NCBI GenBank assembly: GCA_964016885.1
Contig: CAXHJY010000964.1
Span: 1-64,000, forward strand
Reading direction: 5' to 3'
Length of the DNA stretch: 64,000 nt
DNA from: Eledone cirrhosa
Lineage: Eukaryota
The translations under genes and the position numbers were made by a program. Position 1 is the first letter of the stretch, and every line of letters begins with the position of its first letter. Of this stretch, positions 6,246 to 52,370 are shown one piece after another. Under the pieces are notes generated by a model that was given only the letters and a program-made list of their open reading frames with translations, made no database searches and was not told where the DNA came from.

Positions 6246-7150
<905 letters not shown>

Positions 7151-7320
7151 TATATATATATTGTTATACTTTGGGAGGTTCATGTTGCCAATAAGAAACA
7201 CACGCACCAGTTGCTTTCACTTCAATTTAATTTATTATATATTTATAAATTTACAAATTTATAAATTTCTGGTTGGTTGGTTGGTTGGTTCCACAACCAG
7301 ATAGTTGTTTATATATATAT

Positions 7321-7365
7321 AGTCATAGTTCTTTCGTCACACACTCTGTGACCTCTTCAGTGACT
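7321..7365 (-). ncRNA. Type-I hammerhead ribozyme, family A
   Basis: agtca CTGAAGA g gtcaca-gagtg-tgtgac GAAA gaac TA tgact. Stem I 5 bp, stem II 6 bp, minimal stem III. Confidence 0.75.
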
Positions 7366-7676
7366 GGGGATTTCTTTCTTCGTTTCTGTGCCTTTCCTTT
7401 CTTCTATCCTACGCCATTTTGTTTGTGTGTGGGTTGCGTGCTCAGTTTGCGCATGCGCATGCGCCACATCCGGGTGTCTGTGTGTGTTTGTGTTCATTTT
7501 TCTATTTTTCTATTTATATTTTTCTATTTGTTTATTTATTTATTTATTTATTGTTGGTTGGTTGTTTGTTCTATGTGTGTGTGTGTTTTCATTTTGTCTT
7601 GTGTGTGTTTTCATTTTGTGTGTGTTTTCAATTGTAAGTTGTTTGTTCTATGTGTGTGTGTGTTTTCATTTTGTCC

Positions 7677-10600: not shown

Positions 10601-11378
10601 TTGTGTCTGCGTGTCTGTTGTTGTTGTATCTGGGTATGTTGCTATTGTTGTTGTTGTATCTGGGTATGTTGCTATTGTTGTTGTTATTGTTGTTTGTGTC
10701 TGTGTGTCTGTTGTTGTTGGGATGTGTGTTGTATATGTGTGTGCGTATATTGTTGCTTTTGTTTTTGTTTTTGATGCTCCAGCGTAGTTTCGTAAATGAT
10801 TTTTCTATTTCTGACAGACAACTAATCATATTTACCTTCTTGAATGTCGCAAATTTGGGTGGCAGACGTAACACAGACATTTCATTATTATCTATTTCCG
10901 TGTTTCCATAAATGTTGGTATTTTCATTGTTGAACTCTTCAGATAATGAGGTGTCGGCCATGTTGATACCGTCAATTTTGTCGGGATATCTATTGGTATA
11001 CTCTATAGTATCCCGATTTAGCTTTGCCTGTTTAAGCCACTTTAATTTTCTGTTAAAGTGCTTATTACATTCTTGAGTAATGTACTGTTCTTCGGGGCGT
11101 ATAAGGCTTATAAATGTTAGTTTTTCTGCTGGTGTGGTGATTTTAGATATTTCTTGTATTAGGTTGCGCTTTAGTTTTTCTTGATGACTTAATTCACTAT
11201 AGATCTTCTTTTTTATGTTTAGAATTAAAGTTCGTTTTAGCCTATCTGCTTGTTTTTTGGTGAGTTGTAATCTTCTAACGTCGGTATTGATGGTGTTGGT
11301 GTAGATTCTAGAAGTGGTGCACAGTTTTATGAAGCGTAGTTGTCGAGATGTTATGGTTTTTCGTAGACAACAGAACAT
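7677..11378 (-). pseudogene. PLE family A polyprotein (RT + Cys linker + GIY-YIG), interrupted by one in-frame TAG at 8628-8630
   Basis: The 916-aa ORF has PTDKSG, LYGLRKDHK, SMDVVSLYPSI, GAAIG and RYVDD. The 296-aa ORF lies in the same frame 60 nt past the stop and has NVVYSIRC..YVGETAR..R..EH..E...LN. Confidence 0.92.
10380..10760 (-). repeat. (AAC)n / (CA)n low-complexity tract encoding an Asn/His/Thr-rich insert in the family A ORF
   Basis: Translated NNNNNSNIPRYNNN repeats, frame preserved. Confidence 0.85.
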
Positions 11379-11955
11379 GGTGGTTTTCAGTATCTTGTTA
11401 GCCTGGCTAAGGCTTACGATATTTCGTTTCTGAAGTTGTTTAGCAAGATTCTTTATCTGAAATCATGTTGCCAATAAGAAACACACGCACCAGTTGCTTT
11501 CACTTCAATTTAATTTATTATATATTTATAAATTTACAAATTTATAAATTTCTGGTTGGTTGGTTGGTTCCACAACCAGATAGTTGTTTATATATATATA
11601 GTCATAGTTCTTTCGTCACACACTCTGTGACCTCTTCGGTGACTGGGGATTTCTTTCTTCGTTTCTGTGCCTTTCCTTTCTTCTATCCTACGCCATTTTG
11701 TTTGTGTGTGGGTTGCGTGCTCAGTTTGCGCATGCGCATGCGCCACATCCGGGTGTCTGTGTGTGTTTGTGTTCATTTTTCTATTTTTCTATTTATATTT
11801 TTCTATTTGTTTATTTATTTATTTATTTATTGTTGGTTGGTTGTTTGTTCTATGTGTGTGTGTGTTTTCATTTTGTCTTGTGTGTGTTTTCATTTTGTGT
11901 GTGTTTTCAATTGTAAGTTGTTTGTTCTATGTGTGTGTGTGTTTTCATTTTGTCC

Positions 11956-13020
11956 TTAATTGTAAGTTGTGATGTTGCTGTTCCACTCATATTTTCTATT
12001 TAATTTTGGTTTTAATTCTTTTATGCTTACTGCCTCTGTAATTTGCCTAAACATTGCGTCTTTCTTGTGTGTGGATTCTATTTTTATTTCTATGCTCTCT
12101 AATTTACCCCTGTGTTCTATCTTAGCATGTTGGTAGAGCACAGATGATTCTTTATTATCTTGGAGGTCTCGCCAGTGTTCATTTATTCGTTCCCCTATAC
12201 TACGAGCTGTCTCACCTACGTACACTATATTTTTGTTTCTACATTGTCCTTCAGTACATCTTATGCTATATACTACATTTCTAGTTTTACAGTTAATATG
12301 GGGGCTTATTTTACAGGTTATACATTTCTTATCTATACATGAGGGTCTTTGGAACGGGTATGTCTTGCTAATAAGTGTTTTTACGGAGGTACCAGGTCTT
12401 TCTACTATCTTAATATTGAGATTATGTTTCTTTAGGGCCCTTCTAAATTTGTAGGCTAGTTCGCCTCTAGGGGTTGTATTGATGAACATTACACTCTGGT
12501 ATTTATTGCTATCATACCATGAGTTTATTCTATTGGCCTTGTTCCTAGTTCTTTCTATTCTATTCCAAAATTTGCTCCTATACAAGGGGCAGGTCCCATT
12601 TATGTCATTATTTACCATTTTTTCCCATTTGGTTCTGGCTCCTTTATACACTCTGATTCTATCTCTCTGATTGTAGCCAGAGAACTGCATACGGTGGATG
12701 AAGTGTTGTATGTGTCTCTCTAGTTCTTCGGGGTTGCACATGCGGGACACATTTCTCATCACCCGTACCAAATCCGCAATCAGTATGTTGATTTTGGTAT
12801 GGTCCGAAATGGCCGAGTTTCGGTGGATCAGATGTTTGGAAGTCATGGGTTTGGCATAATGGGAATGGAGGATTTGTTTTTGGTTGTTACTTGTATCTAA
12901 CCAGAGCTATGTGTCTAGTACAGGTAATCGATGGTTGGGGTGTCTACTTGGGTAGTCTATAGTAACTCTAATGCTCTGGTGGATGGAGTTTGCTATTTGC
13001 TGGGTGCTTTCCATTGTGTT
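11956..13020 (-). pseudogene. Second tandem copy of the family A RT thumb/GIY-YIG 3' end
   Basis: 296-aa ORF differs from 7677-8567 at one residue. Same TAG at 12908-12910. Confidence 0.9.
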
Positions 13021-13479
13021 TTTCACTTCAATTTAATTTATTATATATTTATAAATTTACAAATTTATAAATTTCTGGTTGGTTGGTTGGTTCCACAACC
13101 AGATAGTTGTTTATATATATATAGTCATAGTTCTTTCGTCACACACTCTGTGACCTCTTCAGTGACTGGGGATTTCTTTCTTCGTTTCTGTGCCTTTCCT
13201 TTCTTCTATCCTACGCCATTTTGTTTGTGTGTGGGTTGCGTGCTCAGTTTGCGCATGCGCATGCGCCACATCCGGGTGTCTGTGTGTGTTTGTGTTCATT
13301 TTTCTATTTTTCTATTTATATTTTTCTATTTGTTTATTTATTTATTTATTTATTGTTGGTTGGTTGTTTGTTCTATGTGTGTGTGTGTTTTCATTTTGTC
13401 TTGTGTGTGTTTTACTTTTGTGTGTGTTTTCAATTGTAAGTTGTTTGTTCTATGTGTGTGTGTGTTTTCATTTTGTCCT

Positions 13480-14092
13480 TTGGAATAGAATAGAAAGAAC
13501 TACGAACAAGGCCAATAGAATAAACTCATGGTATGATAGCAATAAATACCAGAGTGTAATGTTCATCAATACAACCCCTAGAGGCGAACTAGCCTACAAA
13601 TTTAGAAGGGCCCTAAAGAAACATAATCTCAATATTAAAATAGTAGAAAGACCTGGTACCTCAGTAAAAACACTTATTAGCAAGACATACCCGTTCCAAA
13701 GACCCTCATGTATAGATAAGAAATGTATAACCTGTAAAATAAGCCCCCATATTAACTGTAAAACTAGAAATGTAGTATATAGCATAAGATGTACTGAAGG
13801 ACAATGGAGAAGCAAAAATATAGTGTACGTAGGTGAGACAGCTCGTAGTATAGGGGAACGAATACATGAACACTGGCGAGACCTCCAAGATAATAAAGAA
13901 TCATCTGTGCTCTACCAACATGCTAAGATAGAACACAGGGGTAAATTAGAGAGCATAGAAATAAAAATAGAATCCACACACAAGAAAGACGCAATGTTTA
14001 GGCAAATTACAGAGGCAGTAAGCATAAAAGAATTAAAAACAAAATTAAATAGAAAATATGAGTGGAACAGCAACATCAAAACTTACAATTAA
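13480..14092 (+). pseudogene. Inverted copy of the family A GIY-YIG domain
   Basis: WNRIER...YVGETAR...YEWNSNIKTYN matches the minus-strand copies. Confidence 0.9.
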
Positions 14093-14409
14093 GGACAAAA
14101 TGAAAACACACACACACATAGAACAAACAACTTACAATTGAAAACACACACAAAATGAAAACACACACAAGACAAAATGAAAACACACACACACATAGAA
14201 CAAACAACCAACCAACAATAAATAAATAAATAAATAAACAAATAGAAAAATATAAATAGAAAAATAGAAAAATGAACGCAAACACACGCAGACACCCGGA
14301 TGTGGCGCATGCGCATGCGCATGCGCAGACTGAGCACGCAACCCACACACAAACAAAATGGCGTAGGATAGAAGAAAGGAAAGGCACAGAAACGAAGAAA
14401 GAAATCCCC

Positions 14410-14454
14410 AGTCACTGAAGAGGTCACAGAGTGTGTGACGAAAGAACTATGACT
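14410..14454 (+). ncRNA. Type-I hammerhead, family A (further copies 11600-11644 and 13123-13167 on minus)
   Basis: agtcaCTGAAGAggtcacagagtgtgtgacGAAAgaacTAtgact. Confidence 0.75.
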
Positions 14455-14668
14455 ATATATATATAAACAACTATCTGGTTGTGGAACCAACCAACCAACC
14501 AGAAATTTATAAATTTGTAAATTTATAAATATATAATAAATTAAATTGAAGTGAAGCAACTGGTGCGTGTGTTTCTTATTGGCAACATGACCCTCCCAAA
14601 GTATAACAATATCGGTTTCAACACACGATTTCAGATAAAGAATCTTGCTAAACAAATTCAGAAACGAA

Positions 14669-14669
<1 letters not shown>

Positions 14670-14706
<37 letters not shown>

Positions 14707-14882
14707 ATATATATATGTGTATATGTGTATATGTAGGTGTATGTATGTACGTGTGTGTGTGTGTATATACATATATATATATTTATTTATTTATGTATAC
14801 GTATGTGTGTATGTGTGTACGTATGTGTCTGTATAATGTGTGTATGTGTATATATGTATTTGTATGTGTATGTATGTGTATG

Positions 14883-23047: not shown

Positions 23048-23397
<350 letters not shown>

Positions 23398-25011
23398 AAT
23401 ATATATTATATATATATATATTATATATATATATATTATATATAATATGAGATCAAAAGATGGTTAAAGGAGTTCAATATATTTTATTATGCGCATTTCA
23501 AAAACAAACATCATCAAACAATAATATTTGTGTTTTCATCAGATAAAACAGGAGAACATGATATGAAGGCTAAAAAAACACTTGTTGATAGTGCAGTTTT
23601 AAATCAACATATGAAAAGTGGTTTTAGATTGATGTGTGATATTGGGAAAAATATTTTATTTAGAGAGGGGGGGAGAGAAAAGGATGAAAAGGGAAGGAGA
23701 TGAGAGGGAGAGATGGGTGATAGAGAGAAAGAGATAGTTTTTATAACTGAGAGGAGATATATTTTATATAGAGGGGTTGAAAACCGTTGGAAGATACTGT
23801 ATAAATTAAAAATTTTGAAAATTAACGAAGGGAGGATATGTGCGAGGAAAACATATATTATATTTAGGGAGGGGTGGGGGTGGAAAGGATGAAAAAAAAG
23901 GGGAGGAGATGAGAGTGAAGGTGGAAAGGGAGAGATGGGTGATAGAGAGAAAGAGATAGTTTTTATAACTGAGAAAAAGATATAATGTTTTAATATAGAG
24001 AGGTTGGGAACCGTTGGAAGATAATGTATAAATTAAAGGAATTTGAAAATTAACGAAGGGAAATTATGTATGGAGATAGAGAGAAAAAAATAACGAAGGG
24101 AAATTATGTATGGAGATAGAGAGAAAAAAATAATAATTGTGGGTGAATATTCTAACGTCAAAAGGAGAAATGTAGGAATTTTAAAATTAGCAAAGAGAAA
24201 AAGTTTATGTGTAGAAGGATTTGAGAAAAATAATGTGAAGTTAAAGTTTTTATATTGAATTCATATGTATTAATAATGAGTTCGTTGATGGGGAGAAAAA
24301 AATAATAATAAATTAAGGATGAAATTGAGATTAAAAAGATTTATGATAGAGAGAAAAAATAATAATGATTGCGGATGAATACTCAAAATGTCAAAAACAA
24401 ATGTTATTGTTTTACGAGGAGATATAATGAGGGTGATGAGTAAACGGGTATTATAGAGTGTATAATGCCCTTTAAAGTAAGGTAGATGGGTATATTTTAA
24501 AGAATATATGAGTATATATTAAAAAAAATATATAATAATAAATTAAGGATGAAATTGAGATTAAAAAGATTTATGATAGAGGGAAAAAAATAATAATGAT
24601 TGCGGATGAATATTCAAAATGTCAAAAACAAATGTTATTGTTTTACGAGAAGATAGGATGAGGGAAATGAGTAAACGAGTATTATAGAGTGTATAATGCC
24701 CTTTAAAGTAAGGTAGATGGGTATATTTTAAAGAGGTGTATGTATATGTGCCTTTGAGAAAAGATTCTAAATTGATAAAGAATTGAATATTAACTGTATA
24801 CTTTGTGAAAAGTTCTATGGAATTTATGCAGGCAGATGGAAAACAAATCCGAGCGTCTATTTATTATGGATTCTAGGTTAGAGATAATGGTAAATTTTTC
24901 ATTTAGGCAGAGATTACAGATTTTAGATAGAGAGCTGTTCAAGTACGAGGATGCAGAAGAAATCTTTTTCCAAAAGATGTTATATTTAATGTTTTTGTCT
25001 TTTAAGGACCA

Positions 25012-27144
25012 TTCAAGAGATACCCTTACAAAGGACAAGAGCACCTTGTAAATCTCAAGAACACAATCTCTAACCTAAATTCCTCAAAAAATGTTTTAGT
25101 CCACTCTGACAAAACCAATAACCTATATGGTATTTCCAAGGATAATTATAACAACCTTATCCTAAAGGAACTTAGGAAAAAGTATCGTAAAACCAACCAT
25201 GAAAATTTAGAATGCATAAACCTTGAAGCCTATGAGATTATGTCAAAACTTGGCATTGAAAAAAAGACCGAACCATTCCTCCCAAGAACTCCGAGGATAA
25301 ATCTCAAGGATCACAAAAACAATTTTCGCACTGAACTACCTGTTAGATTAATCGCCCCCTCTAAATCTGATCTGGGGGTTGTTAGTAAAGCCATCTTGGA
25401 TAGGATTATCCCACAGGTTAGTTCTAATTGCTCTTCTTTAAACCTAAATTTATGGTTTGGTACTTCTGAAGTGATTGGCTGGTTCAACAAATTGGATAAT
25501 AAAAACAAACTAAAATTTATTCAATTCGATATTGCCAGCTACTATTCCTCCATTTCGCCTTCACTTCTCAATAATGCTCTATCTTTCGCACTTAAATATT
25601 CTGACATCACCACAGATGAACTTCACATCATCCTCACCGCACGTAAAACCATCCTAGAGTTCAACAACGAATATTGGACCAGAGCCGATACCTCTAACAA
25701 CTTCGACATCACAATGGGAGCATCCGATTCATCCCAATTGACTGATTTAATTGGTATCTTCATTTTGAACTCTTTGAGTCGGAAAATTCCTCAACTTCGC
25801 GGTGGAATTTATCGTGACGATGGACTCTTTACTATCCTAAATTGCAATATAGTTAAACTTAATATTATTAAGAACAATATACGTAATCTCTTTAACCAAC
25901 ATAACCTAAAAATTGAATTTGATAATAGTACCAAACTAGCTAATTTCTTGGATGTATCTCTTAATCTTGACACTGGCCTATATTACCCTTACCATAAAAA
26001 CAATGAGAATCTTAATTATGTTAACTTTAAATCTAACCATCCTACCAATATCAAGAATGCTATAGTTAATAATATTGGAAATAGAATATCTAACATATCT
26101 TCTAATAAAAACATCTTTGATGCTAACGCCAATTACTATAATAACGCACTTTCTAAAGCCGGCTATCCAGATAAAATCAAATATAATAAAGAAACAAATT
26201 CTAGGAAAACTTACAGTAGAATATTTAATCATAACCATTCCAATAATTTTAATAAAAGACCTAGATACAAAAACATAATCTGGTATAATGCTCCTTTCTC
26301 CATCTCTATTAATAACAATATTCCTAAATTATTTTTTAGTGCCTTAAATAAATGCTTCCCTCCCTCACATATCTATAGTAAAATATTTAACAAACACACC
26401 ATCAAATTTTCGTATTCTACATCCTCCAATATTTCCAACATCATCTCTAAACACAACAACAAAATATTAAATACTAAATCTCTTCCTTCCAATATTGAAT
26501 CTCATAATAACAATAATAGTACTCCTGACGTCATTGTAAACCCTAGGCTAACTTCTGTAAACCCAAATGCAACGTCAAACACAACTTCGCTAAATGTTCA
26601 TAATCCAACTCTAAATCAAGAAACTATTATTCCTATTATTCCTATCGCAAACAACTTCTCCAATCCAATTCCTTCTATAGATAATACTAGATCACTCATT
26701 AATAATCTCTCTAATTGCAACTGCCGCATTAAAAATAAATGTCCTCTCAACAACCATTGCCTCGATAAAAACTTAATTTATGAATGTAAAATTATAACTA
26801 GCACCAATTCCTTCACCTATTTTGGCTCCACTTCCACCTCTTTTAAAGCTCGTCTCTATAATCATCATTCATCTTTCAAATACAAACTTAAAAGAACTAA
26901 CACTGCTCTCTCAGAACTCATATGGTCCTTAAAAGACAAAAACATTAAATATAACATCTTTTGGAAAAAGATTTCTTCTGCATCCTCGTACTTGAACAGC
27001 TCTCTATCTAAAATCTGTAATCTCTGCCTAAATGAAAAATTTACCATTATCTCTAACCTAGAATCCATAATAAATAGACGCTCGGATTTGTTTTCCATCT
27101 GCCTGCATAAATTCCATAGAACTTTTCACAAAGTATACAGTTAA
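25012..27144 (+). CDS. PLE RT/GIY-YIG (YRDD type), uninterrupted but 5'-truncated
   Basis: Frame is open from 25012 (FKRYPYKGQEHL..HSDKTNN) into the 634-aa ORF: RLIAPSKSDLG, QFDIASYY, MGASDS, GIYRDDGL, CNCR..CPL..CL, YFGST..FKARL..H, CNLC..EK. Confidence 0.9.
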   Translation, partial: FKRYPYKGQEHLVNLKNTISNLNSSKNVLVHSDKTNNLYGISKDNYNNLILKELRKKYRKTNHENLECINLEAYEIMSKLGIEKKTEPFLPRTPRINLKDHKNNFRTELPVRLIAPSKSDLGVVSKAILDRIIPQVSSNCSSLNLNLWFGTSEVIGWFNKLDNKNKLKFIQFDIASYYSSISPSLLNNALSFALKYSDITTDELHIILTARKTILEFNNEYWTRADTSNNFDITMGASDSSQLTDLIGIFILNSLSRKIPQLRGGIYRDDGLFTILNCNIVKLNIIKNNIRNLFNQHNLKIEFDNSTKLANFLDVSLNLDTGLYYPYHKNNENLNYVNFKSNHPTNIKNAIVNNIGNRISNISSNKNIFDANANYYNNALSKAGYPDKIKYNKETNSRKTYSRIFNHNHSNNFNKRPRYKNIIWYNAPFSISINNNIPKLFFSALNKCFPPSHIYSKIFNKHTIKFSYSTSSNISNIISKHNNKILNTKSLPSNIESHNNNNSTPDVIVNPRLTSVNPNATSNTTSLNVHNPTLNQETIIPIIPIANNFSNPIPSIDNTRSLINNLSNCNCRIKNKCPLNNHCLDKNLIYECKIITSTNSFTYFGSTSTSFKARLYNHHSSFKYKLKRTNTALSELIWSLKDKNIKYNIFWKKISSASSYLNSSLSKICNLCLNEKFTIISNLESIINRRSDLFSICLHKFHRTFHKVYS

Positions 27145-28383
27145 TATTCAATTCTTTATCAATTTAGAATCTTTTCTCAAAGGCACATATACATACACCT
27201 CTTTAAAATATACCCATCTACCTTACTTTAAAGGGCATTATACACTCTATAATACTCGTTTACTCATTTCCCTCATCCTATCTTCTCGTAAAACAATAAC
27301 ATTTGTTTTTGACATTTTGAATATTCATCCGCAATCATTATTATTTTTTCCCTCTATCATAAATCTTTTTAATCTCAATTTCATCCTTAATTTATTATTA
27401 TATATTTTTTTTAATATATACTCATATATTCTTTAAAATATACCCATCTACCTTACTTTAAAGGGCATTATACACTCTATAATACCCGTTTACTCATCAC
27501 CCTCATTATATCTCCTCGTAAAACAATAACATTTGTTTTTGACATTTTGAGTATTCATCCGCAATCATTATTATTTTTTCTCTCTATCATAAATCTTTTT
27601 AATCTCAATTTCATCCTTAATTTATTATTATTTTTTTCTCCCCATCAACGAACTCATTATTAATACATATGAATTCAATATAAAAACTTTAACTTCACAT
27701 TATTTTTCTCAAATCCTTCTACACATAAACTTTTTCTCTTTGCTAATTTTAAAATTCCTACATTTCTCCTTTTGACGTTAGAATATTCACCCACAATTAT
27801 TATTTTTTTCTCTCTATCTCCATACATAATTTCCCTTCGTTATTTTTTTCTCTCTATCTCCATACATAATTTCCCTTCGTTAATTTTCAAATTCCTTTAA
27901 TTTATACATTATCTTCCAACGGTTCCCAACCTCTCTATATTAAAACATTATATCTTTTTCTCAGTTATAAAAACTATCTCTTTCTCTCTATCACCCATCT
28001 CTCCCTTTCCACCTTCACTCTCATCTCCTCCCCTTTTTTTCATCCTTTCCACCCCCACCCCTCCCTAAATATAATATATTTTTTCCTCGCACATATCCTC
28101 CCTTCGTTAATTTTCAAAATTTTTAATTTATACAGTATCTTCCAACGGTTTTCAACCCCTCTATATAAAATATATCTCCTCTCAGTTATAAAAACTATCT
28201 CTTTCTCTCTATCACCCATCTCTCCCTCTCATCTCCTTCCCTTTTCATCCTTTTCTCTCCCCCCCTCTCTAAATAAAATATTTTTCCCAATATCACACAT
28301 CAATCTAAAACCACTTTTCATATGTTGATTTAAAATTGCACTATCAACAAGTGTTTTTTTAGCCTTCATATCATGTTCTCCTG

Positions 28384-28450
28384 TTTTATCTGATGAAAAC
28401 ACAAATATTATTGTTTGATGATGTTTGTTTTTGAAATGCGCATAATAAAA
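28384..28450 (+). ncRNA. Type-I hammerhead, family E (mirror copy 23482-23548 and third copy 61145-61211, both minus)
   Basis: ttttat CTGATGA [long stem II with GU pairs] GAAA tgcgca TA ataaaa; palindromic stem III. Confidence 0.85.
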
Positions 28451-28577
28451 TATATTGAACTCCTTTAACCATCTTTTGATCTTATATTATGCATACTCCA
28501 GTCCCACAAACTGTAGAGTGCTTCTTATCCGATATCTGCATTGCTTTATTGTACTACAATAAAACTCACCTCCTACA

Positions 28578-28800
28578 TATATTATATATATATATATATA
28601 TTATATATAATAAATTAAATATAAATATATATATTATATATATATATATTATATATATATATATATTATATATATATATTATATATATATATATATTATA
28701 TATATATTATATTTATATTATATATATATATATATTATATATATTATATATTATATATATATTATATATATATATATTATATATATATATTATATATATC

Positions 28801-34188: not shown

Positions 34189-34306
<118 letters not shown>

Positions 34307-35776
34307 TTATATTATATATATATATATATATATATACAATATTAAATAAATGGAAACTATATTTATAAAACCATATTTATTTCATTATATATATTTCAGG
34401 GATATCATATTAACAATATGCTATGCCTTCCTCAGACAAAATACAATATAAACAGTTTTATAGATAAATAGATTCGACATACCGTAACAACATCGACTTG
34501 TATTTGAAAAGGTTGATTTGGCAGTGAAAAAATTGTACACAGAGAGAAATAAAGAGAGAAAAAAAGAAAGAAAGACAGAAAACGAAGAAAAAGAAGAAAA
34601 AGAAGAAATGCATGGAACAAAATAGAGAGATGGAAAGATAGATAAAGAGTAGAACTTCATGTAAAGAAACAGAAAGAGATATATATATAGAGAGAGAGAG
34701 GAAATAGAGATAGATACATATATATAGAAAATTAGGTAGTGGGACGTCTGTTGAGTAAACGTATCAATGATACATTTATTTATTTATTTAGCTCTAGTAT
34801 TAATGTAAGGGAGATATATACAGAGAGAAAAAATATAGAGAGAGAAAAAATTTAAAAATAACCAGATATAGGCGAGGCGTAAAAAACCCTATGTTTTAAT
34901 GTAGAGGTATTAGTATTTATAAAAACCAGCCACTATATTGTAAATATCAGTATTCCTGAATGAGACAAGTATCCATAATGTGTGAAAATTAATGATCTTA
35001 TGTTTAGTTTTTTTAAAAAATTCATATGTTTATGTGATAGCTACAAACATCCATGTGAATCCACATAATCAACTCTGCAAACCCTAAGTTCACGGAAAAC
35101 ATTCTCAATGTGGTATAAAAATTTAAGTATACATATATGTGTATTACTATTCCTGTCTTTACTCTACAAGATTATCTATCAAGCAGAAATAGAGAGCAGA
35201 TTTCAATATACTAATAAAAATATATATCAGAAACAAAACTAAAAATAACAATAATAATAATAAGTAATAATAAAATGGAAAACTAAAAAATATTACGAAA
35301 GAATATTACATATTAAAAATATTACATATTAAAAAATTTACATATTAAAAATATTAAAAATATTAAAAATAAAAATAAAAATTAAAATATTAGAAAATAC
35401 TACAATAATAAAAATAAAAATAAACCACAAAGATCAACCCTTCAAAATTAATTGACAATATATTGCCAAGTTCATTATAAGCATCAGAGTCGAAAAACAG
35501 ATAAAGCCAAAAATGATCTATCAAATCACATCTAGCAAAGATCATTTCAAAAAGTTTAGGATGCCCAATTTGGTCTACATGTGTTCTTATATTTAATATA
35601 GAAGTTTATCTAGTGTAACGTTTATTCGAAATATTTGGAGCATCAGCTTTTAGGGTAGCTTAATTTTTCATGAGGAATGCTTAAATAAAAATAAAATAAA
35701 AATAAAAAGAATAAAAAGAAGGAATCAAAGATTTATCGGCTAGTTTCCCATATAATTATAAATCAAACTAAATATA

Positions 35777-37996
35777 CTACATTTTAAATTTAAATTTATA
35801 TTTAAACGTTGAGTTTAATCTATGTTTGCAACAACTGAATAAATTTGTCCGTAGATTAAGGGAATTTTTAGATTTTAGTATAAAGAATATCTCCTCTGCG
35901 CAGAGGTCACATGTCTCAGAGGATGAATTAAAAGGAATCCCTCTTGAGACTATATTCCAAGCCGTCGAATATCTAACGTTATCTAGCTTAAGTTGCCAGA
36001 GTACGCCTGATAGTGCCGTTGAAGATTTTTTGCTTGGATCTGTGAAAGAATTCTTGTGGTTATTATAGCGAAGTTTAAATTCCGTCGATGTGGAACCGAC
36101 GTAGTTAAAAGAATTAGAGTCAGTATTAACATTACAATTGTATACTATATTTTTAAATAAGCAGTTGTTATTTAACGGACATTTAGATCTATCTCTACAG
36201 TTACATTTGTTAACTTGTATATTATTTATGCTATTATCACTAGGTTTTAAGTTCCTATTATTTATTCTATTAATATTTTGTGCTAAATTTTTGGTGGATG
36301 AGTAGGTTAATTTTATTGTATGTCTATTGAAAATTGAGTGATACCTATGTGTTCTAGGGAAGCTATTATCAAGAGCTTTGAAAAATAGTTTAGCGATGTG
36401 GGTTTTAATGTTTAGTGAGAAAGGGGTGGGGGGGGGCAAACCAAATTATGTTCCTAGTTCTATTTCTTTTTTGGCCTTTGGAATTATTGTAATGCTTTCT
36501 ATTATAGTTGTTAAGGTTGTTGCCGTAATTAAAAAAGTTGTTACTTTGTTTAGTTTGTCTATCATTATCTATGTACACAATCTTATCAGCATATCCTGCT
36601 CTAGCTAATGCTTCATTATAGTATTGGGCTTTTTCGTCGAAAATCTTTCTATTCGACGAGATCCTAGAGATACGTTTTTGAACAGAGTTTACTATAGTGT
36701 TTTTGACAGATCTGGGGTGGTTAGAGTTAGAGTTGACATAGTTTAAGTTTTCATTCAACTTGTGAAAAGGATAGTGAAGACATGTGTTGAGATTTAATGT
36801 TATATCTAGGAAATTGACTATTCTATGGTTGTTCTCAATTTCTATTTTAAGATTAAAGTAATTAAAAATTGTGTAATTTGTTTACATTTTCTATTTAGTT
36901 CAGAGTTATTATTATCAATAAGTAAAAGCATGTCATCTCTATATAAACCTCCGGTAGTACCAGGTATTTTCCTATGTAGCGAATTGATTAAAAATAAGCC
37001 CACAAGGTCAGTTACCTGAGCTGAGTCGGATGATCCCATAGTTATGTCAAAATTGCTATCTCTATCTGCTCTGGTCCATAGTTGGTCATTAAATTCTATC
37101 AAAGTTTTCCTAGCCGATAATATAATATGCATTTCATTGCTAGTTAGATCAGTATGTTTGAATGCGTAATTTAGTGCCTTATTTAGTAGATTAGGGGTAA
37201 TAGAAGAATAATAGTTAGCTATATCAAGTTGAATAAACTTATTATTATTGTTATATTTAATTTGCTTAAACCACTCAACAACCTCTCCAGTTCCCTTCCA
37301 CAAGCTCAGGTTAGATAAACAATCCAAGTTCTTAATTTGCTGTATCACCCTGTCAAGAATGTTTTTGCTTAATTTGCCCAGGTCCGATTTTGATGGTGCG
37401 ATCAATCTAACTGGCAGGTCATTTTCAAAATTCCTCTTGTGATCTTTCATATTGATCTTCGGTTTCCTGGGCACGAAAGGTTGTGTTCTGTTCTCAATTT
37501 CCAACTCGTGCATTATACAAGATGCTTCGACATTCATTTTCTCAAGTTCGGCCTTATCTGCTACCTTGTACTTTTTCCTCAGCTCTTTCAGTATGAGGCC
37601 ATTATACATGTCTTTCTGCACTCCATAGAGGTTGTTGGTCTTGTCAGATTTCACCAAGATCTTCTCAGTTTTCTCTAAGCTCTCAATGTTATCCTTAATG
37701 CCTTTCAGATATTCCTGGCCTTTGAAGTTTCTCTTGAATTTGACCCCTTGTATGATAGAAATTATATCGTTGTCAAAGTCAGATAAAAGTTTGTTATGGG
37801 GTGGATTTCTTTTAGATTTGAAAACTTTGTTTAAGTCCGAGACATTTTCGTTTGTATTAGATTTATCAAAGTGGAATGCTCGCCACCTGATTCTCCTTAT
37901 AAAAGAGTCAGATTTATCTATTAATTGTTTTATAAAGTCTTTGTTTCTAGGTAGAGGTATGTCTTTTAAAGAGGAAGTAATCTTAAAGAATTCCAT
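35777..37996 (-). pseudogene. Family F RT/GIY-YIG, left copy, frameshifts in homopolymers (~36866, ~36430)
   Basis: ORFs 36842-37996, 36405-36758 and 35777-36439 are consecutive parts. SLKDIP, KSDKTNN, GLYRDD, YVGST..FKLRY. Confidence 0.92.
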
Positions 37997-38502
37997 TTTT
38001 CCAGTTATAATATAAAGCGCTCAACAGTATTGGAGCAAGATACATGGAAAGTTATATTTAAATTGTTGGGTTACAACTAGTAAATATTTATAACTGATAT
38101 AAAAGCACTCGACAAATATTTGGAATATATTTACAATATTAAATAAATGGAAACTATATTTATAAAACCATATTTATTTCATTATATATATTTTTCAGGT
38201 ACAAGTCGATGTTGTTACGGTATGTCGAATCTATTTATCTATAAAACTGTTTATATTGTATTTTGTCTGAGGAAGGCATAGCATATTGTTAATATGATAT
38301 CCCTGAAATATATATAATGAAATAAATATGGTTTTATAAATATAGTTTCCATTTATTTAATATTGTAAATATACTCCAAATATTTGTCGAGTGCTTTTAT
38401 ATCAGTTATAAATATTTATTAGTTGTAACCCAACAATTTAAATATAACTTTCCATGTATCTTGCTCCAATACTGTTGAGCGCTTTATATTATAACTGGAA
38501 AA

Positions 38503-40723
38503 ATGGAATTCTTTATGATTACTTCCTCTTTAAAAGACATACCTCTACCTAGAAACAAAGACTTTATAAAACAATTAATAGAAAAATCTGACTCTTTTAT
38601 AAGGAGAATCAGGTGGCGAGCATTCCACTTTGATAAATTTAATACAAACGAAAATGTCTCGGACTTAAACAAAGTTTTCAAATCTAAAAGAAATCCACCC
38701 CATAACAAACTTTTATCTGACTTTGAAAACGATATAATTTCTATCATACAAGGGGTCAAATTCAAGAGAAACTTCAAAGGCCAGGAATATCTGAAAGGCA
38801 TTAAGGATAACATTGAGAGCTTAGAGAAAACTGAGAAGATCTTGGTGAAATCTGACAAGACCAACAACCTCTATGGAGTGCAGAAAGACATGTATAATGG
38901 CCTCATACTGAAAGAGCTGAGGAAAAAGTACAAGGTAGCAGATAAGGCCGAACTTGAGAAAATGAATGTCGAAGCATCTTGTATAATGCACGAGTTGGAA
39001 ATTGAGAACAGAACACAACCTTTCGTGCCCAGGAAACCGAAGATCAATATGAAAGATCACAAGAGGAATTTTGAAAATGACCTGCCAGTTAGATTGATCG
39101 CACCATCAAAATCGGACCTGGGCAAATTAAGCAAAAACATTCTTGACAGGGTGATACAGCAAATTAAGAACTTGGATTGTTTATCTAACCTGAGCTTGTG
39201 GAAGGGAACTGGAGAGGTTGTTGAGTGGTTTAAGCAAATTAAATATAACAATAATAATAAGTTTATTCAACTTGATATAGCTAACTATTATTCTTCTATT
39301 ACCCCTAATCTACTAAATAAGGCACTAAATTACGCATTCAAACATACTGACCTAACTAGCAATGAAATGCATATTATATTATCGCCTAGGAAAACTTTGA
39401 TAGAATTTAATGACCAACTATGGACCAGAGCAGATAGAGATAGCAATTTTGACATAACTATGGGATCATCCGACTCAGCTCAGGTAACTGACCTTGTGGG
39501 ATTATTTTTAATCAATTCGCTACATAGGAAAATACCTGGTACTACCGGAGGTTTATATAGAGATGACATGCTTTTACTTATTGATAATAATAACTCTGAA
39601 CTAAATAGAAAATGTAAACAAATTACACAATTTTTTAATTACTTTAATCTTAAAATAGAAATTGAGAACTACCATAGAATAGTCAATTTCCTAGATATAA
39701 CATTAAATCTCAACACATGTCTTCACTATCCTTTTCACAAGTTGAATGAAAACTTAAACTATGTCAACTCTAACTCTAACCACCCCAGATCTGTCAAAAA
39801 CACTATAGTAAACTCTGTTCAAAAACGTATCTCTAGGATCTCGTCGAATAGAAAGATTTTCGACGAAAAAGCCCAATACTATAATGAAGCATTAGCTAGA
39901 GCAGGATATGCTGATAAGATTGTGTACATAGATAATGATAGACAAACTAAACAAAGTAACAACTTTTTTTAATTACGGCAACAACCTTAACAACTATAAT
40001 AGAAAGCATTACAATAATTCCAAAGGCCAAAAAAGAAATAGAACTAGGAACATAATTTGGTTCCCCCCCCCCCCCCCCTTTCTCACTAAACATTAAAACA
40101 CACATCGCTAAACTATTTTTCAAAGCTCTTGATAATCGCTTCCCTAGAACACATAGGTATCACTCAATTTTCAATAGACATACAATAAAATTAACCTACT
40201 CATCCACCAAAAATTTAGCACAAAATATTAATAGAATAAATAATAGGAACTTAAAACCTAGTGATAATAGCATAAATAATATACAAGTTAACAAATGTAA
40301 CTGTAGAGATAGATCTAAATGTCCGTTAAATAACAACTGCTTAGTTAAAAATATAGTAAACAATTGTAATGTTAATACTGACTCTAATTCTTTTAACTAC
40401 GTCGGTTCCACATCGACGGAATTTAAACTTTGCTATAATAACCACAAGAATTCTTTCACAGATCCAAGCAAAAAATCTTCAACGGCACTATCAGGCGTAC
40501 TCAGGCAACTTAAGCTAGATAACGTTAGATATTCGACGGCTTGGAATATAGTCTCAAGGGGGATTCCTTTTAATTCATCCTCTGAGACATGTGACCTCTG
40601 CGCAGAGGAGATATTCTTTATACTAAAATCTAAAAATTCCCTTAATCTACGGACAAATTTATTCAGTTGTTGCAAACATAGATTAAACTCAACGTTTAAA
40701 TATAAATTTAAATTTAAAATGTA
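38503..40723 (+). pseudogene. Family F RT/GIY-YIG, right copy, frameshifts at poly-T 39964-39970 and poly-C ~40063-40078
   Basis: 489-aa ORF followed by GIY-YIG coding sequence matching the left copy. Confidence 0.92.
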
Positions 40724-42083
40724 GTATATTTAGTTTGATTTATAATTATATGGGAAACTAGCCGATAAATCTTTGATTCCTTCTTTTTATTCTTTTTATT
40801 TTTATTTTATTTTTATTTAAGCATTCCTCATGAAAAATTAAGCTACCCTAAAAGCTGATGCTCCAAATATTTCGAATAAACGTTACACTAGATAAACTTC
40901 TATATTAAATATAAGAACACATGTAGACCAAATTGGGCATCCTAAACTTTTTGAAATGATCTTTGCTAGATGTGATTTGATAGATAATTTTTGGCTTTAT
41001 CTGTTTTTCGACTCTGATGCTTATAATGAACTTGGCAATATATTGTCAATTAATTTTGAAGGGTTGATCTTTGTGGTTTATTTTTATTTTTATTATTGTA
41101 GTATTTTCTAATATTTTAATTTTTATTTTTATTTTTAATATTTTTAATATTTTTAATATGTAAATTTTTTAATATGTAATATTTTTAATATGTAATATTC
41201 TTTCGTAATATTTTTTTAGTTTTCTATTTTATTATTACTTATTATTATTATTGTTATTTTTAGTTTTGTTTCTGATATATATTTTTATTAGTATATTGAA
41301 ATCTGCTCTCTATTTCTGCTTGATAGATAATCTTGTAGAGTAAAGACAGGAATAGTAATACACATATATGTATACTTAAATTTTTATACCACATTGAGAA
41401 TGTTTTCCGTGAACTTAGGGTTTGCAGAGTTGATCATGTGGATTCACATGGATGTTTGTAGCTATCACATAAACATATGAATTTTTTTAAAAAACTAAAC
41501 ATAAGATCATTAATTTTCACACATTATGGATACTTGTCTCATTCAGGAATACTGATATTTACAATATAGTGGCTGGTTTTTATAAATACTAATACCTCTA
41601 CATTAAAACATAGGGTTTTTTACGCCTCGCCTATATCTGGTTATTTTTAAATTTTTTCTCTCTCTATATTTTTTCTCTCTCTATATTTTTTCTCTCTATA
41701 TATATCTCCCTTACATTAATACTAGAGCTAAATAAATAAATAAATAAATAAATGTATCATTGATACGTTTACTCAACAGACGTCCCACTACCTAATTTTC
41801 TATATATATGTATCTATCTCTATTTCCTCTCTCTCTCTATATATATATCTCTTTCTGTTTCTTTACATGAAGTTCTTCTCTTTATCTATCTTTCCATCTC
41901 TCTATTTTGTTCCATGCATTTCTTCTTTTTCTTCTTTTTCTTCGTTTTCTGTCTTTCTTTCTTTTTTTCTCTCTTTCTTTCTCTCTGTGTACAATTTTTT
42001 CACTGCCAAATCAACCTTTTCAAATACAAGTCGATGTTGTTACGGTATGTCGAATCTATTTATCTATAAAACTGTTTATATTG

Positions 42084-42149
42084 TATTTTGTCTGAGGAAG
42101 GCATAGCATATTGTTAATATGATATCCCTGAAATATATATAATGAAATA
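42084..42149 (+). ncRNA. Type-I hammerhead, family F, (UA)n stem III (copies 38259-38324 plus, 34378-34443 minus)
   Basis: tattttgt CTGAGGA agg-c-ata-g-catatt-gtt-aatatg-a-tat-c-cct GAAA tatata TA atgaaata. Confidence 0.8.
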
Positions 42150-42470
42150 AATATGGTTTTATAAATATAGTTTCCATTTATTTAATATTGTAAATATACT
42201 CCAAATATTTGTCGAGTGCTTTTATATCAGTTATAAATATTTACTAGTTGTAACCCAACAATTTAAATATAACTTTCCATGTATATATATATATATTATA
42301 TATATATATTATATATTTATATTATATATATATTATATATATATATTATATATATATATATGTTATATATATATATATATTATATATATATATTATATAT
42401 TTATATTATATATATATTATATATATATATTATATTATATATATATATATATTATATATATATATATTAT

Positions 42471-47853: not shown

Positions 47854-47937
47854 ATATATACATTATATATATATATATTATATATAGAAAAGATGAATAT
47901 AAAATGAAAGTGCTTTTTTAAAAAGGAATTTATTAGG

Positions 47938-48055
47938 TATTGACATATGTTTCTGTAACTGACGGAATACCTATGTATCGCTGCTTGCGTAATCATATAA
48001 TGTTAGCAAGTATTCGATAGCAAATGTATAATCAGTTGTCACTTCTTCAGAGATA
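47938..48055 (-). ncRNA. Hammerhead with 90-nt stem II, family G (copy 51057-51174)
   Basis: CTGAAGA [90 nt] GAAA catatg TC; stem I weak. Confidence 0.55.
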
Positions 48056-48531
48056 TTGGATGAATTGGAAAAAATCAGAAAAATTGAAGTATTTATATTA
48101 GTTGTAAGAAAGGAAGAGAGGGGATTGTATATGACAGACGGCAATTCAATTCACTGGTAAACAAGTATATAAAGGGTTTCTAATGAGAATACAATGAGTA
48201 TATGGTTTATTTTATCTAAATAAGAATGTTTGGGAGTGCCTATTTTAATCTATACTTGACCAATTGAACAATGGACAGGGCTGGTCGTTTGGTGTAGTAG
48301 TATTAATAGATATAAAGTGTCAATTAAGGAAGAGGGAGATTTTCACTGCTACTGAATAACAACAATGCTAGTAGCCTGCTGGTATATGCATTAGGGAATT
48401 GAATTAAGAAATCTCATTTTATCTATAGCAGTTTATATTAAATTGTAAAGAATAGAAGAGTTGATAGAATTAAGACTAATAGAGAATGTTAATATGTATT
48501 TTGACAATCAAACGGAGATGGAGACAGGCGT

Positions 48532-50847
48532 TCAATCCTGGTAGTGTTTGTAATATGAAAATGTAGATTTCAAGCGATGATTACAGTATAACGATCGCTC
48601 TATTCTGTTATTTAATAAAATATTTTTGGATTTCATAATACAAAATAATTCCATATTACACAATTTACAAAATTCCTGTCCGTGGGTATGGAGGGGCCCG
48701 CTATTATATCCCAGTTTAGGTTAAATTGTTGGTTATTTTCGCACAGCTGCCAAGCCTTGTCTGCGAGTGTTGTTACATAACGCTGGTTTTCATGTTTTAT
48801 CGAGTAACGATGTCTATAAAGGCGAGATTTGAAGGAGGTGGCTGTAGACCCCGCATAGTACCACTTCTGGCTATCCGATTCGATAGTACATTTGTATATG
48901 ATGTTGCGTTCAAGACACTGATTGTTCAACGGACACATTCCTTGTTGGACACAGTTACAGTTATAATGTTGCGTTGTTGTATTGGCATGGATGGGTTGAT
49001 GAGGTTGCTTAGGTAGGACGGGATGTTGTTTGTTGTTTTGTGATTTTATAGCCGATGTTTTACGTGTATTGTTATGTGTTGGAAGGCGTTTATACAACCG
49101 TTTTGCGTTAAGCTTTTTTATATGTTGTTCAATATTAGGGGCGGTTGAATATGAAAGTCGAATAGTGTTAGGGTTTAAGATTTTATTATATTTAGGTGAT
49201 GTTGGAAAGTGTTTTTTAACTGATAGAAAGAATTGTGAGGGTAAATTGGTTTTAATAGAGTTGTTATAGACCGGGTTGTACCATATATACTCTTTACATC
49301 GCCTTCTGTTTGGTGGTGTGCCACTATTAGTGTGTCTATTGCGGTAGTGTATGTATGGTGGTGATTCTATGCTATTTCTACCTCTATGAGATTTATTTTG
49401 GGTGTTTTGGTGATCGTCGACTATATACTCTATATTATCTAGGTGTCCAGCCTTCCTAAGTGCATCATCATAATATTCGGCATGTTCTTTGAAGGTTTTC
49501 TGGTTGGAAGACAGGCGGGAGATTCTAAGGGAAATATTTCTAGGGATGGATTTAATTATAGAGGGTGGATGGTTAGAACCCGTATTTACATATTTAAGGT
49601 TCTCATTTAGTTTATGGAACGGTTTAATCGTTTCTGTATTGAGATTCAAAGTAACATCAAGGAAATTAACCTCTTTGAGGTTATATTCAAATGTAGTATT
49701 TAATCCTAGTTCCTTAAAAAGCTTTCTGATATTTTTACGCATCCTTTCTAAATTCTGGTTATTCATATGCTTAACTAATAGGAGCGCATCGTCACGGTAG
49801 ATTCCACCGTGGAGATCCTTGAATTTTCCTTGTAGTCTGTGGGTGATATAAATTCCCACAAGATCAGTTACTTCCGCCGAATCATTGGAACCCATAGTAA
49901 TATCAAAATTAGAAGGTCTATCTTTGGGAACCCAGTAGCTATCATCAAATTTAACAATAGTTTTCCTCGCTTCCATAATAATATTAATTTCAGCATCCGT
50001 AAGGTCGGAATTAGCCTTAGCGAACGAAAGAGCTTCATGCAGAGTATCAGGTAAAATTGAGGAATAATATTCATCAATATCGAACTGAATAAATTTTGAT
50101 TTTTTTCTTATCAGTAATGCTATTAAACCCTCTTATTGCATCATGGGTGTTACCCCATAGTTTAATATCTACTATAGCCTTAACTTGGGGGATAATTCTG
50201 TCTAGTATATATTTGCTAATTTTGCCTATATCAGATTTAGAGGGGCATATAAGTCTAATTTTAGGGTCAGTATCGAAGTTTAACTTGTGGTCCTTCAGGT
50301 TGAAGGATGGTGTAGCTGGTGTTAAGGGTTGCGTTCTATCGTCAATACAAAGTTTTTTAACAATTTCACATGCCGAGTTGTTGATGTTTTTAAGTGTAGC
50401 TTCATTAGTTTTCTTGTATTTTTTATGCAATTCCTTACAGATGAAGTTATTCTAAGTGTCCACATCCATGGTATATACGTTTGATGTTTTGTCTGCTGTA
50501 ACAATAATTCCATTGGCGTTTTTTAGATTATTGAGCAGTGCCGTGATGTCATTCTTTAGTTTATTGTTTTTCTGTTTTGTAAATTTGATCTCCATGATCA
50601 TATCCCTTAGGTCTTGTTCAAATGCATCCAAAAGTGGGTTTGATGGTGGGTTTTTGTAAGATTTAAATCCAAATTTATCCTTGTTAAGATCCGATGTTTG
50701 GTTTATACGGCTTTTGTCAAATTGGAATGTTTTCCATCTTATTCGTCGAATAAAATCATTGGTCCTTCGTATCATACCTAGAATATATTCCTTTTTTGCC
50801 TGAATAGGTATGTTTTTTAACGACATATCCAATTGGTGCCTTTCCAT
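48532..50847 (-). pseudogene. Family G RT/GIY-YIG (YRDD type), several stops and frameshifts
   Basis: SLKNIP, TADKTSN, RLICPSKSDIG, MGSNDS, GIYRDDAL, CNC..CPL..CL, YYAGST..FKSRL across four ORFs. Confidence 0.9.
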
Positions 50848-51380
50848 TTTAGAGGCGTATGCTGAATTAGTTGCTCAACTGTATAGGAGATTATTAAAAT
50901 TTCAGGTTATCAATAATGTAGTGATAATATATCGTCATGTTAGAGATGAACAGCGGACGTCTAGGTTTGCTCAACGAGTATAAATTATATTCCGGAAAAA
51001 ATGTAGAAAAGATGAATATAAAATGAAAGTGCTTTTTTAAAAAGTAAATTATTAGGTATTGACATATGTTTCTGTAACAGACGGAATACCTATGTATCGC
51101 TGCTTGCGTAATAATATAATGTTAGCAAGTATTCGATAGCAAATGTATAATCAGTTGTCACTTCTTCAGAGATATTGGATAAATTGGAAAAAATCAGAAA
51201 AATTGAAGTATTTATATTAGTTGTAAGAAACGAAGAGAGGGGATAGTATATGACAGATGGCAATTCAATTTACTGGTAAACAAGTATATAAAGGGTTTCT
51301 AATGAGAATACAATGAGTATATGGTTTATTTTATCTAAATAAGAATTTTTGGGAGTGCCTATTTTAATCTATACTTGACC

Positions 51381-51617
51381 ATATATTATCACTACATTAT
51401 TGATAACCTGACGTGACGATATATTATCACTACATTATCACTACATTATTGATAACCTGACGTGACGATATATTATCACTACATTATCACTACATTATTG
51501 ATAACCTAACGTGATATTGATAACCTAATGATATATTATCACTATATTATCACTACATTATTGATAACCTAACGTGACGATATATTATCACTACATTATT
51601 GATAACCTGAAATTTTT
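51381..51617 (+). repeat. Tandem array of ~6 variable copies of the element's own 5' UTR segment (reverse complement of 50895-50943)
   Basis: Unit cgtgacgatatattatcactacattattgataacct(g/a)a matches the reverse complement of 50895-50943. Confidence 0.9.
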
Positions 51618-51955
51618 ATATTATATATATATATATTATATATATATTATATATCATATATATATTATATATATATATAGATATTATTTATATATATTAT
51701 ATATATATATATTATATATATATATATTATATATATATATATATTATATATATATATTATATATATATATATTATATATATATATATATTATATATATAT
51801 ATATATATTATATATATATATATTATATATATATATATTATATATTATATATATATTATATATATATATATTATATATTATATATATATTATATATATAT
51901 ATATTATATATATATATATATTATATATATATATATATTATATATATATATATAT

Positions 51956-51989
<34 letters not shown>

Positions 51990-52245
51990 ATATTATATAT
52001 ATATATATATATTATATATATATATATATTATATATATATATATATTATATATATATATTATATATATATATTATATATATATATATTATATATTATATA
52101 TATATTATATATATATTATATATTATATATATATTATATATATATATATTATATATATATATATATTATATATATATATATTATATATATATATATTATA
52201 TATTATATATATTATATATATATATATTATATATTATATATATAT

Positions 52246-52276
<31 letters not shown>

Positions 52277-52370
52277 ATATATATATATATATATTATATA
52301 TATATATATATTATATATATATAATATATATATTATATATATATTATATATATATGATATGTATATATAC
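51618..52370. repeat. (TA)n array, TT-interrupted
   Basis: Direct reading. Confidence 0.95.

What the first reader, a model, noticed from the sequence alone, without database searches (positions are those of the whole stretch)
51381..51617. Telomerase-like reiterated copying of a short internal template at a PLE insertion junction
Seen: the 5' junction of family G carries ~6 tandem, variable-length copies of a 40-50 nt segment. That segment is the element's own 5' UTR (reverse complement of 50895-50943: ctaacatgacgatatattatcactacattattgataacctgaaatttta), in inverted orientation. Copies rejoin via short template microhomologies, either ct(g/a)a at the two ends of the segment or the internal attat repeat. 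Only the last copy runs on to gaaattttta and into the TA target. Established: PLE RTs are close relatives of telomerase RT, which reiterates a template by realigning on a terminal repeat. Inference: this is a fossil of repeat-addition (realign-and-recopy) synthesis by an endonuclease-bearing PLE RT during second-end priming.
Basis: partly seen in the sequence, partly recalled or inferred. Interest (0 to 1): 0.85.

Follow-up and report, generated by a model that had tools for sequence, protein, structure and literature searches.

The report
Stuttered copying at Penelope insertion junction
At one end of a Penelope-type jumping gene, a 49-base stretch next to the element's copying start point was written out about six times in uneven pieces, likely because the element's telomerase-related enzyme stalled, slipped back and recopied its RNA; this is a rare accident rather than a programme, but it suggests a direct test for repeat addition in these enzymes.

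Summary
The array is real and private. It parses into 11 exact pieces, all from one 49-nt window (50895-50943) of the element's own 5' UTR, and carries the element's subfamily allele. Its outer end is the family's fixed 'tail' start site (635 exact junctions genome-wide), so it is the inverted second arm of a Hydra-type Penelope insertion. Five re-join patterns find it at no other copy, so this is an error mode, not a routine product. Single arms often stop in this window (17 of 90), just short of a predicted helix conserved in a sister family. Related families show 2-3-unit re-copies beside start sites; in two, the inner unit keeps a base present in the element's continuation but absent from the outer junction, which favours re-priming on RNA. 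Best reading (0.5): reverse transcriptase realign-and-recopy, plus one likely DNA-level 49-bp duplication. Rival (0.3): host end-joining polymerase recopying the short cDNA. It fails telomerase's tests of precision and routine use, and similar slippage is described for a LINE. Earlier scan notes reported the two-start layout on other DNA; my look-ups showed none on such an array.

The parts
51381..51617 (+). Junction array: 11 exact segments (about 6 units) of the tail window, inverted relative to the element; the short second arm of the insertion
   Evidence: exact contigs over 51429-51575
51385..51507 (+). Perfect period-49 stretch inside the array (two identical units sharing an 11-nt duplication and the CTGA join); likely DNA-level duplication
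   Evidence: self-referencing parse
51376..51381 (+). Join of the long arm to the array: TGACCA against TGACGA of the template, 5 of 6 bases in register
50895..50943 (-). Template window in the 5' UTR; 50895 is the family's tail end (start site B)
50950..50959 (-). 5' arm of a predicted long-range RNA helix, ending about 7 nt 5' of the array's template limit
   Evidence: prediction; one double change between two families
50856..50865 (-). 3' arm of the same predicted helix, just upstream of the start codon
47885..51381 (-). Long arm: Hydra-type Penelope-like element (family G), starting at the other start site (A) in a TA run, one monomer plus upstream pseudo-LTR
51001..51381 (-). 5' pseudo-LTR, 97% identical to 47882-48262
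   Evidence: 10 mismatches in 378
48636..50847 (-). Broken RT + GIY-YIG ORF with RWK, DKT, YRDD and CxCx5C motifs
   Evidence: translation; Pfam scans gave no RT hit
51618..52360 (.). TA-rich target microsatellite at the array end

Best explanation
The array is the inverted second arm of a Penelope-like insertion, likely made when the element's reverse transcriptase, primed on the TA target at the tail start site, stalled within about 50 bases, realigned on short partial matches nearer the start and recopied the same RNA several times, after which one 49-bp unit was probably duplicated at the DNA level. Shown: source window, cis allele, fixed start, privacy, frequent early stops in this window. 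Inferred: which polymerase did the recopying, the direction of synthesis, the role of the helix as a leaky boundary, and the timing of the 49-bp duplication. It is a rare error mode (of the order of 0.1-1% of ends), not a programmed repeat addition.
For: Outer end = tail site shared by 635 exact junctions; inverted arms from the same site in 7 of 30 loci including this one. Array carries the host copy's minority allele (6 of 67; 26 of 111) and the ancestral base where the neighbouring UTR is private. 17 of 90 tail-initiated arms end within 24-62 nt, about 6 times the rate elsewhere. Three of six back-jumps (two CT joins, one TA join) pair better if the nascent strand is cDNA on RNA; the TA join recurs at one other lone cap. 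In family F, L244 has the whole 49-nt tail window twice at the primer end of an arm that runs on about 300 nt, and L244 and L252 keep the G of the element's continuation (CCATGTA) in the inner unit while the outer junction reads CCAT-ATAT, a common junction type (10 of 12 fetched). L263 has 3 units with two different joins. Segments of 20-46 nt with 0-2 changes in 236 nt fit poorly with polymerase theta tracts (rarely over 10 bp, PMC7165422; about 1 error in 30 bp, PMC5068794). Initiation-phase slippage is described for LINE UnaL2 (PMC1636434).
Against: Only 1 such array among at least 636 tail junctions; 0 at G's other start and 0 in the sister family (24 junctions). The CTGA join (twice) has only 1 bp of pairing in the cDNA direction against 4 in the other; the ATTAT join fits both. 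72 of 90 single arms run past the window, so four or five successive stops inside it need an extra cause (0.2^4-0.2^5), whereas a short DNA cap limits the template automatically. No array segment contains RNA-only sequence beyond the start site. Arms from the other start also stop early (4 of 30), so the helix is not required. DNA-level expansion of element windows does occur here (about 50 x 41 bp with shared variants). The passages of the in vitro PLE study that I read (PMC11167929) mention no repeated products.
Confidence: 0.5

Rival explanations
1. The reverse transcriptase made one 49-nt cap; a host end-joining polymerase (polymerase theta type) then joined the arms by extending the long arm's 3' end on that cap, aborting and re-annealing near the cap's end several times before running through to the target.
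For: All segments lie inside one cap-sized window and four begin at its extreme end. First join is 5 of 6 in register. CTGA join pairs 4 bp in this direction. The window is AT-rich, the condition that favours aborted rounds (PMC7165422 passages); complex overlapping inserts from one flank are described (16 of 17, PMC5068794 passages). Family-G junctions show short re-copies above background (17 of 209 ends against about 2%) and some fold-back patches.
Against: Segments are longer and cleaner than reported theta tracts. CT and TA joins have only 2 bp in this direction. It does not explain re-copies at primer ends or inside arms that run on (L244, L250, L256, L261).
Confidence: 0.3
2. A single short inverted cap was inserted and later grew by microhomology-mediated tandem duplication and slippage, as a young minisatellite.
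For: Perfect period-49 stretch; shared derived features between units; a true minisatellite of about 50 x 41 bp grew from an element window elsewhere; TA-containing triple units at L255 and L260. Expected substitutions since insertion are only about 2 (0.8%), so a clean array does not date it.
Against: At least four different joins and 7-15 nt fragments would need many separate events in a copy only 0.8% diverged; the array abuts the junction exactly; no unit-length periodicity over the outer half.
Confidence: 0.15
3. The array is an assembly or consensus artefact beside a long TA run.
For: Unplaced contig; only one run holds the sequence and no listed piece spans it.
Against: Exact contigs cover the private joins over 51429-51575 with depth about doubled in the duplicated 49-mer.
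Confidence: 0.04

Closest known systems
Inverted 5' arm with 'tail' of endonuclease-bearing Penelope-like elements; Hydra clade (PMC8557442 section 11 and passages; PMC3846280 passages)
   Same: Partial tandem with pseudo-LTR, inverted short arm, one-sided tail, TA target, RWK/DKT/CxCx5C motifs.
   Different: The inverted arm is a six-unit patchwork of one window rather than one stretch; the tail here is about 109 nt, not 30-40.
Internal initiation by the Poseidon PLE of Anolis (PMC11167929, parts 1-2 of 4 and passages read)
   Same: Two fixed start sites bounding the tail; both DNA strands are cut and extended; AT-rich target.
   Different: No realigned or repeated products are mentioned in the text read; its supplementary figures were not seen.
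Template slippage at initiation by LINE UnaL2 (PMC1636434 passages)
   Same: A retrotransposon enzyme recopies the region next to its start, beside a bound hairpin; the authors liken it to telomerase.
   Different: There a 5-nt perfect repeat and a regular step; here 19-49 nt units, imperfect matches, rare.
Telomerase and DRT10 repeat addition (PMC12632851 passages)
   Same: Stop near a helix, realign downstream by a short match, recopy.
   Different: Those have a fixed boundary, a conserved A-B-A' pattern, precise period and routine output; a 20-nt B segment abolished DRT10 addition, here B would be 34 nt.
Templated insertions of polymerase theta-mediated end joining (PMC7165422, PMC5068794, PMC2895639 passages)
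   Same: Overlapping re-copies from one side of a junction, 1-5 bp microhomologies, AT-rich template.
   Different: Reported tracts are mostly under 10-25 bp and error-rich; this insert is about 190 nt beyond one cap with 0-2 changes.

Membership tests
Hydra-clade Penelope-like element | RWK motif and DKT in place of DKG | tested here: met
   RRIRWKTF and ADKTSN in the translation; criteria from PMC8557442 section 11
Hydra-clade Penelope-like element | CxCx5C linker before a C-terminal GIY-YIG domain | tested here: met
   CNCVQQGMC followed by IIY..YAG by eye; Atlas neighbours at 0.94-0.97 include clusters with RVT_1 and GIY-YIG on under half of members; Pfam gave no direct hit
Hydra-clade Penelope-like element | Insertion into (TA)n | tested here: met
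   both ends of this copy; 635 and 352 exact TA junctions
Hydra-clade Penelope-like element | Canonical hammerhead ribozyme in the pseudo-LTR | tested here: inconclusive
   no Rfam match at E up to 1; only core-like words seen by eye
Hydra-clade Penelope-like element | Placement in the clade by RT phylogeny; absence of CCHH | not tested
   no reference set aligned
Telomerase-type repeat addition | Fixed 5' template boundary set by a helix | tested here: inconclusive
   predicted helix 7 nt 5' of the window, 7 pairs kept in 10 of 10 sequences of two families, one double change, folding z only -1.1; 72 of 90 arms pass it and early stops spread over 38 nt
Telomerase-type repeat addition | Conserved alignment region (A-B-A') | tested here: not met
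   CTAA/CTGA is 3 of 4; such a match occurs in 1194 of 3059 windows; no counterpart seen by eye in the sister family's window
Telomerase-type repeat addition | Precise periodic units | tested here: not met
   11 segments, at least four join types; TRF 63% matches, 22% indels at period 38
Telomerase-type repeat addition | Repeats are the routine product | tested here: not met
   1 array among at least 636 tail junctions
Telomerase-type repeat addition | Processive addition by the enzyme on its RNA | not testable with these tools
   needs biochemistry
Polymerase theta templated insertion | Template within a few tens of bases of the break, one flank, 1-5 bp microhomology | tested here: met
   taking the cap as the opposite end
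Polymerase theta templated insertion | Short (mostly under 10-25 bp), error-prone tracts | tested here: not met
   7 of 11 segments are 20-46 nt; 0-2 changes in 236 nt
Polymerase theta templated insertion | Dependence on POLQ | not testable with these tools
   needs mutant cells

The most novel reading that the evidence does not exclude
Hydra-clade Penelope reverse transcriptases have a latent, processive repeat-addition mode: anchored on the hairpin just downstream of the tail start and bounded upstream by a conserved helix that closes the tail domain, they can recopy a 40-50 nt template loop several times, in an RNA arrangement that parallels the telomerase template and boundary element.
Probability: 0.2. 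Interest if true: 0.8.

Novelty: new variant of a known kind. Interest (0 to 1): 0.45.

Why it matters
Penelope-like reverse transcriptases are the sister group of telomerase (PMC8557442), and whether they can realign and recopy a template is open as far as my nine searches show (none listed a report of such arrays at Penelope junctions). This locus and its parallels give a defined 160-nt RNA, a start site, a candidate boundary helix, predicted join sequences and a family with many intact 781-aa frames, so the question becomes directly testable. If the host polymerase is responsible, it is an unusually long, readable end-joining scar and shows how junctions seed minisatellites.

Tried and rejected
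Inherited minisatellite: rejected, no other copy (one search covers only the host's subfamily allele, the others do not depend on it; the other rows were unrelated repeats by their matched letters). Later copying from the neighbouring UTR: rejected by the ancestral G. RNA 5' end or fixed stop at 50943: rejected, stops are spread and the main later cluster lies about 290 nt from the start. A second enzyme on the upstream hairpin as roadblock: not supported, arms from the other start stop early too. Dating by substitutions: no power (about 2 expected). Rfam and Pfam gave nothing useful. For family F the helix I saw by eye was not the minimum-energy fold. My intended neutral control in family F proved to be its other start window; a deeper window still gave 4 loci among at least 6528 copies, so start-proximal enrichment is only a few-fold and denominators are lower bounds. 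A script had a wrong motif and was rerun. PMC13580325 and PMC2718515 passages added little. Only one public run holds the array, so allele variation could not be examined.

Full report
Observation. The window comes from a 3.0-Gb genome. A Penelope-like element lies on the minus strand from a TA run at 47885 to 51381, with a pseudo-LTR pair 97% identical and a broken frame showing RWK, DKT, YRDD and CxCx5C motifs that match the Hydra clade description. Between 51381 and the next TA run at 51618 lies the array. With one site set to the family state, it parses into 11 exact segments, all from the 49-nt window 50895-50943 of the element's own UTR, inverted, plus one extra T. The joins are CTGA/CTAA (twice), ATTAT (twice), CT (twice), TA (once) and three small jumps without homology. 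51385-51507 has a perfect period of 49. One public run holds exact contigs over 51429-51575, about twice as deep in the 49-mer as in the unique part; it may be the assembled sample and no listed piece spans the whole.

The ends. The array's outer end is the family's tail end: 635 exact tail-TA junctions exist, and a second start 109 nt upstream has 352. I fetched 90 of the 635 (the first 90 listed) and 30 of the 352. Most double-armed insertions join an arm from one start head-to-head with an arm from the other, as internal initiation at two sites would predict (PMC11167929, parts 1-2 read) and as earlier scan notes on other pieces proposed. So the array is the short second arm; the long arm's end meets it in a 5-of-6 register.

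Origin and age. The array carries the host copy's minority allele (6 of 67 tail copies; 26 of 111 loci) and the ancestral G at a site where the neighbouring UTR is private (0 of 111 share it). The copy has 28 private changes in 3497 bases, so about 2 are expected in the array and 0-2 are seen: consistent with formation at insertion, but no proof.

How common. Five re-join patterns match only this locus in family G; one of the joins recurs in a lone cap elsewhere. G's other start gave 0, an internal G window 0, the sister family 0 among 24 junctions. Short re-copies at G junctions are above background: 17 of 209 junction ends from 149 loci (some are one junction seen from both sides, some are doubtful) against 11 of 679 internal positions and 80 of 4167 swapped pairs. 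In family F the tail window is re-copied at 4 loci (at least 366 junctions of one type); the F-like upstream start window at 13 loci (at least 2377 junctions); a deeper window at 4 loci (at least 6528 copies). Exact patterns miss diverged cases, and denominators are lower bounds.

Why this window. 17 of 90 tail-initiated arms stop within 24-62 nt, 0.54 per 100 nt against 0.06-0.10 elsewhere except a second cluster at 271-300 nt. A predicted helix pairs 50950-50959 with 50856-50865, closing the tail window and the downstream hairpin. It is kept in a sister family of 70% protein identity whose loop differs, with one double change (10 sequences of two families), and complementary arms sit at the same place in family F by eye, though the fold of F did not choose them and the G fold is not significant alone. 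The helix is leaky (72 of 90 arms pass) and arms from the other start also stop early (4 of 30).

Who recopied. Two directions fit. If the reverse transcriptase recopied RNA from the target inward, the CT joins pair 4 bases and the TA join 7 of 8 plus wobbles, but the CTGA join only 1; if a host polymerase extended the long arm on the cap, these are 2, 2 and 4; ATTAT fits both. The focal locus alone does not decide. Sister loci tip the balance: L244 has the whole tail window twice at the primer end of an arm that continues about 300 nt, and L244 and L252 keep in the inner unit a G that follows in the element but is missing from their outer junction; several 19-nt re-copies sit inside arms that run on; L263 has three units with two different joins. 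Segment length and cleanliness also fit poorly with polymerase theta (PMC7165422, PMC5068794 passages). Against this, repeated stops inside a window that most arms pass are easier with a short DNA template, and DNA-level growth is proven here by an array of about 50 x 41 bp with shared variants, which makes the identical 49-bp pair a likely later duplication.

Comparison. The layout is the known inverted arm with tail (PMC8557442, PMC3846280 passages). Slippage at initiation, likened to telomerase, is described for LINE UnaL2 (PMC1636434 passages). Against the criteria for telomerase and DRT10 (PMC12632851 passages) the array fails on conserved alignment region, precision and routine use, and is inconclusive on a boundary helix. 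Nine searches listed no report of such arrays at Penelope junctions; subscription papers are not covered. PMC2895639, PMC2718515 and PMC13580325 were seen as passages only; from the supplement of PMC8557442 four table rows.

Verdict. Real, private, made at or soon after insertion from the element's own template; most likely enzyme stutter on RNA (0.5), otherwise host end joining (0.3) or later slippage (0.15). New variant of a known kind; interest 0.45, mainly because it defines a cheap test of repeat addition in telomerase's sister group.

Noticed in passing
window 50856-50865 with 50950-50959; L223-L240; window 38402-38410 with 38490-38498: A long-range helix closing the tail domain sits at the same place (after the first hairpin, before the start codon) in three Hydra-type families with different sequences; predicted, one double change between G and its sister.
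   Followed up: partly
L271 (G000:C25:7707303-7709300): About 50 copies of a 41-bp unit inside an F-like element arm, with two variant sites in all combinations: a minisatellite grown from an element window.
   Followed up: partly
L244:1210-1575: One family-F insertion with re-copying at both ends: 16-nt unit three times at the 5' end (private) and the 49-nt tail window twice at the primer end.
   Followed up: partly
L255, L260, L256, L250, L258, L261, L262: Recurrent 19-nt duplication between two TTTAT repeats near the upstream start of F-like elements, in different subfamilies; two loci have triple units that include a TA run.
   Followed up: partly
window about 51165-51185 and 28 to 30: Many arms end about 280-295 nt from the tail start, a likely RNA 5' end inside the pseudo-LTR.
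   Followed up: no
G000: Family G has many uninterrupted 781-aa frames and a sister family at about 70% protein identity.
   Followed up: no
window 34190-42361, 23299-28663, 6431-14799: Other large inverted element structures in the window; several are related to family G at 37-53% protein identity.
   Followed up: no
window 2546-2674 and 3479-3713: A 37-bp repeat with 3.5 and 6.5 copies in two copies of the same element segment.
   Followed up: no
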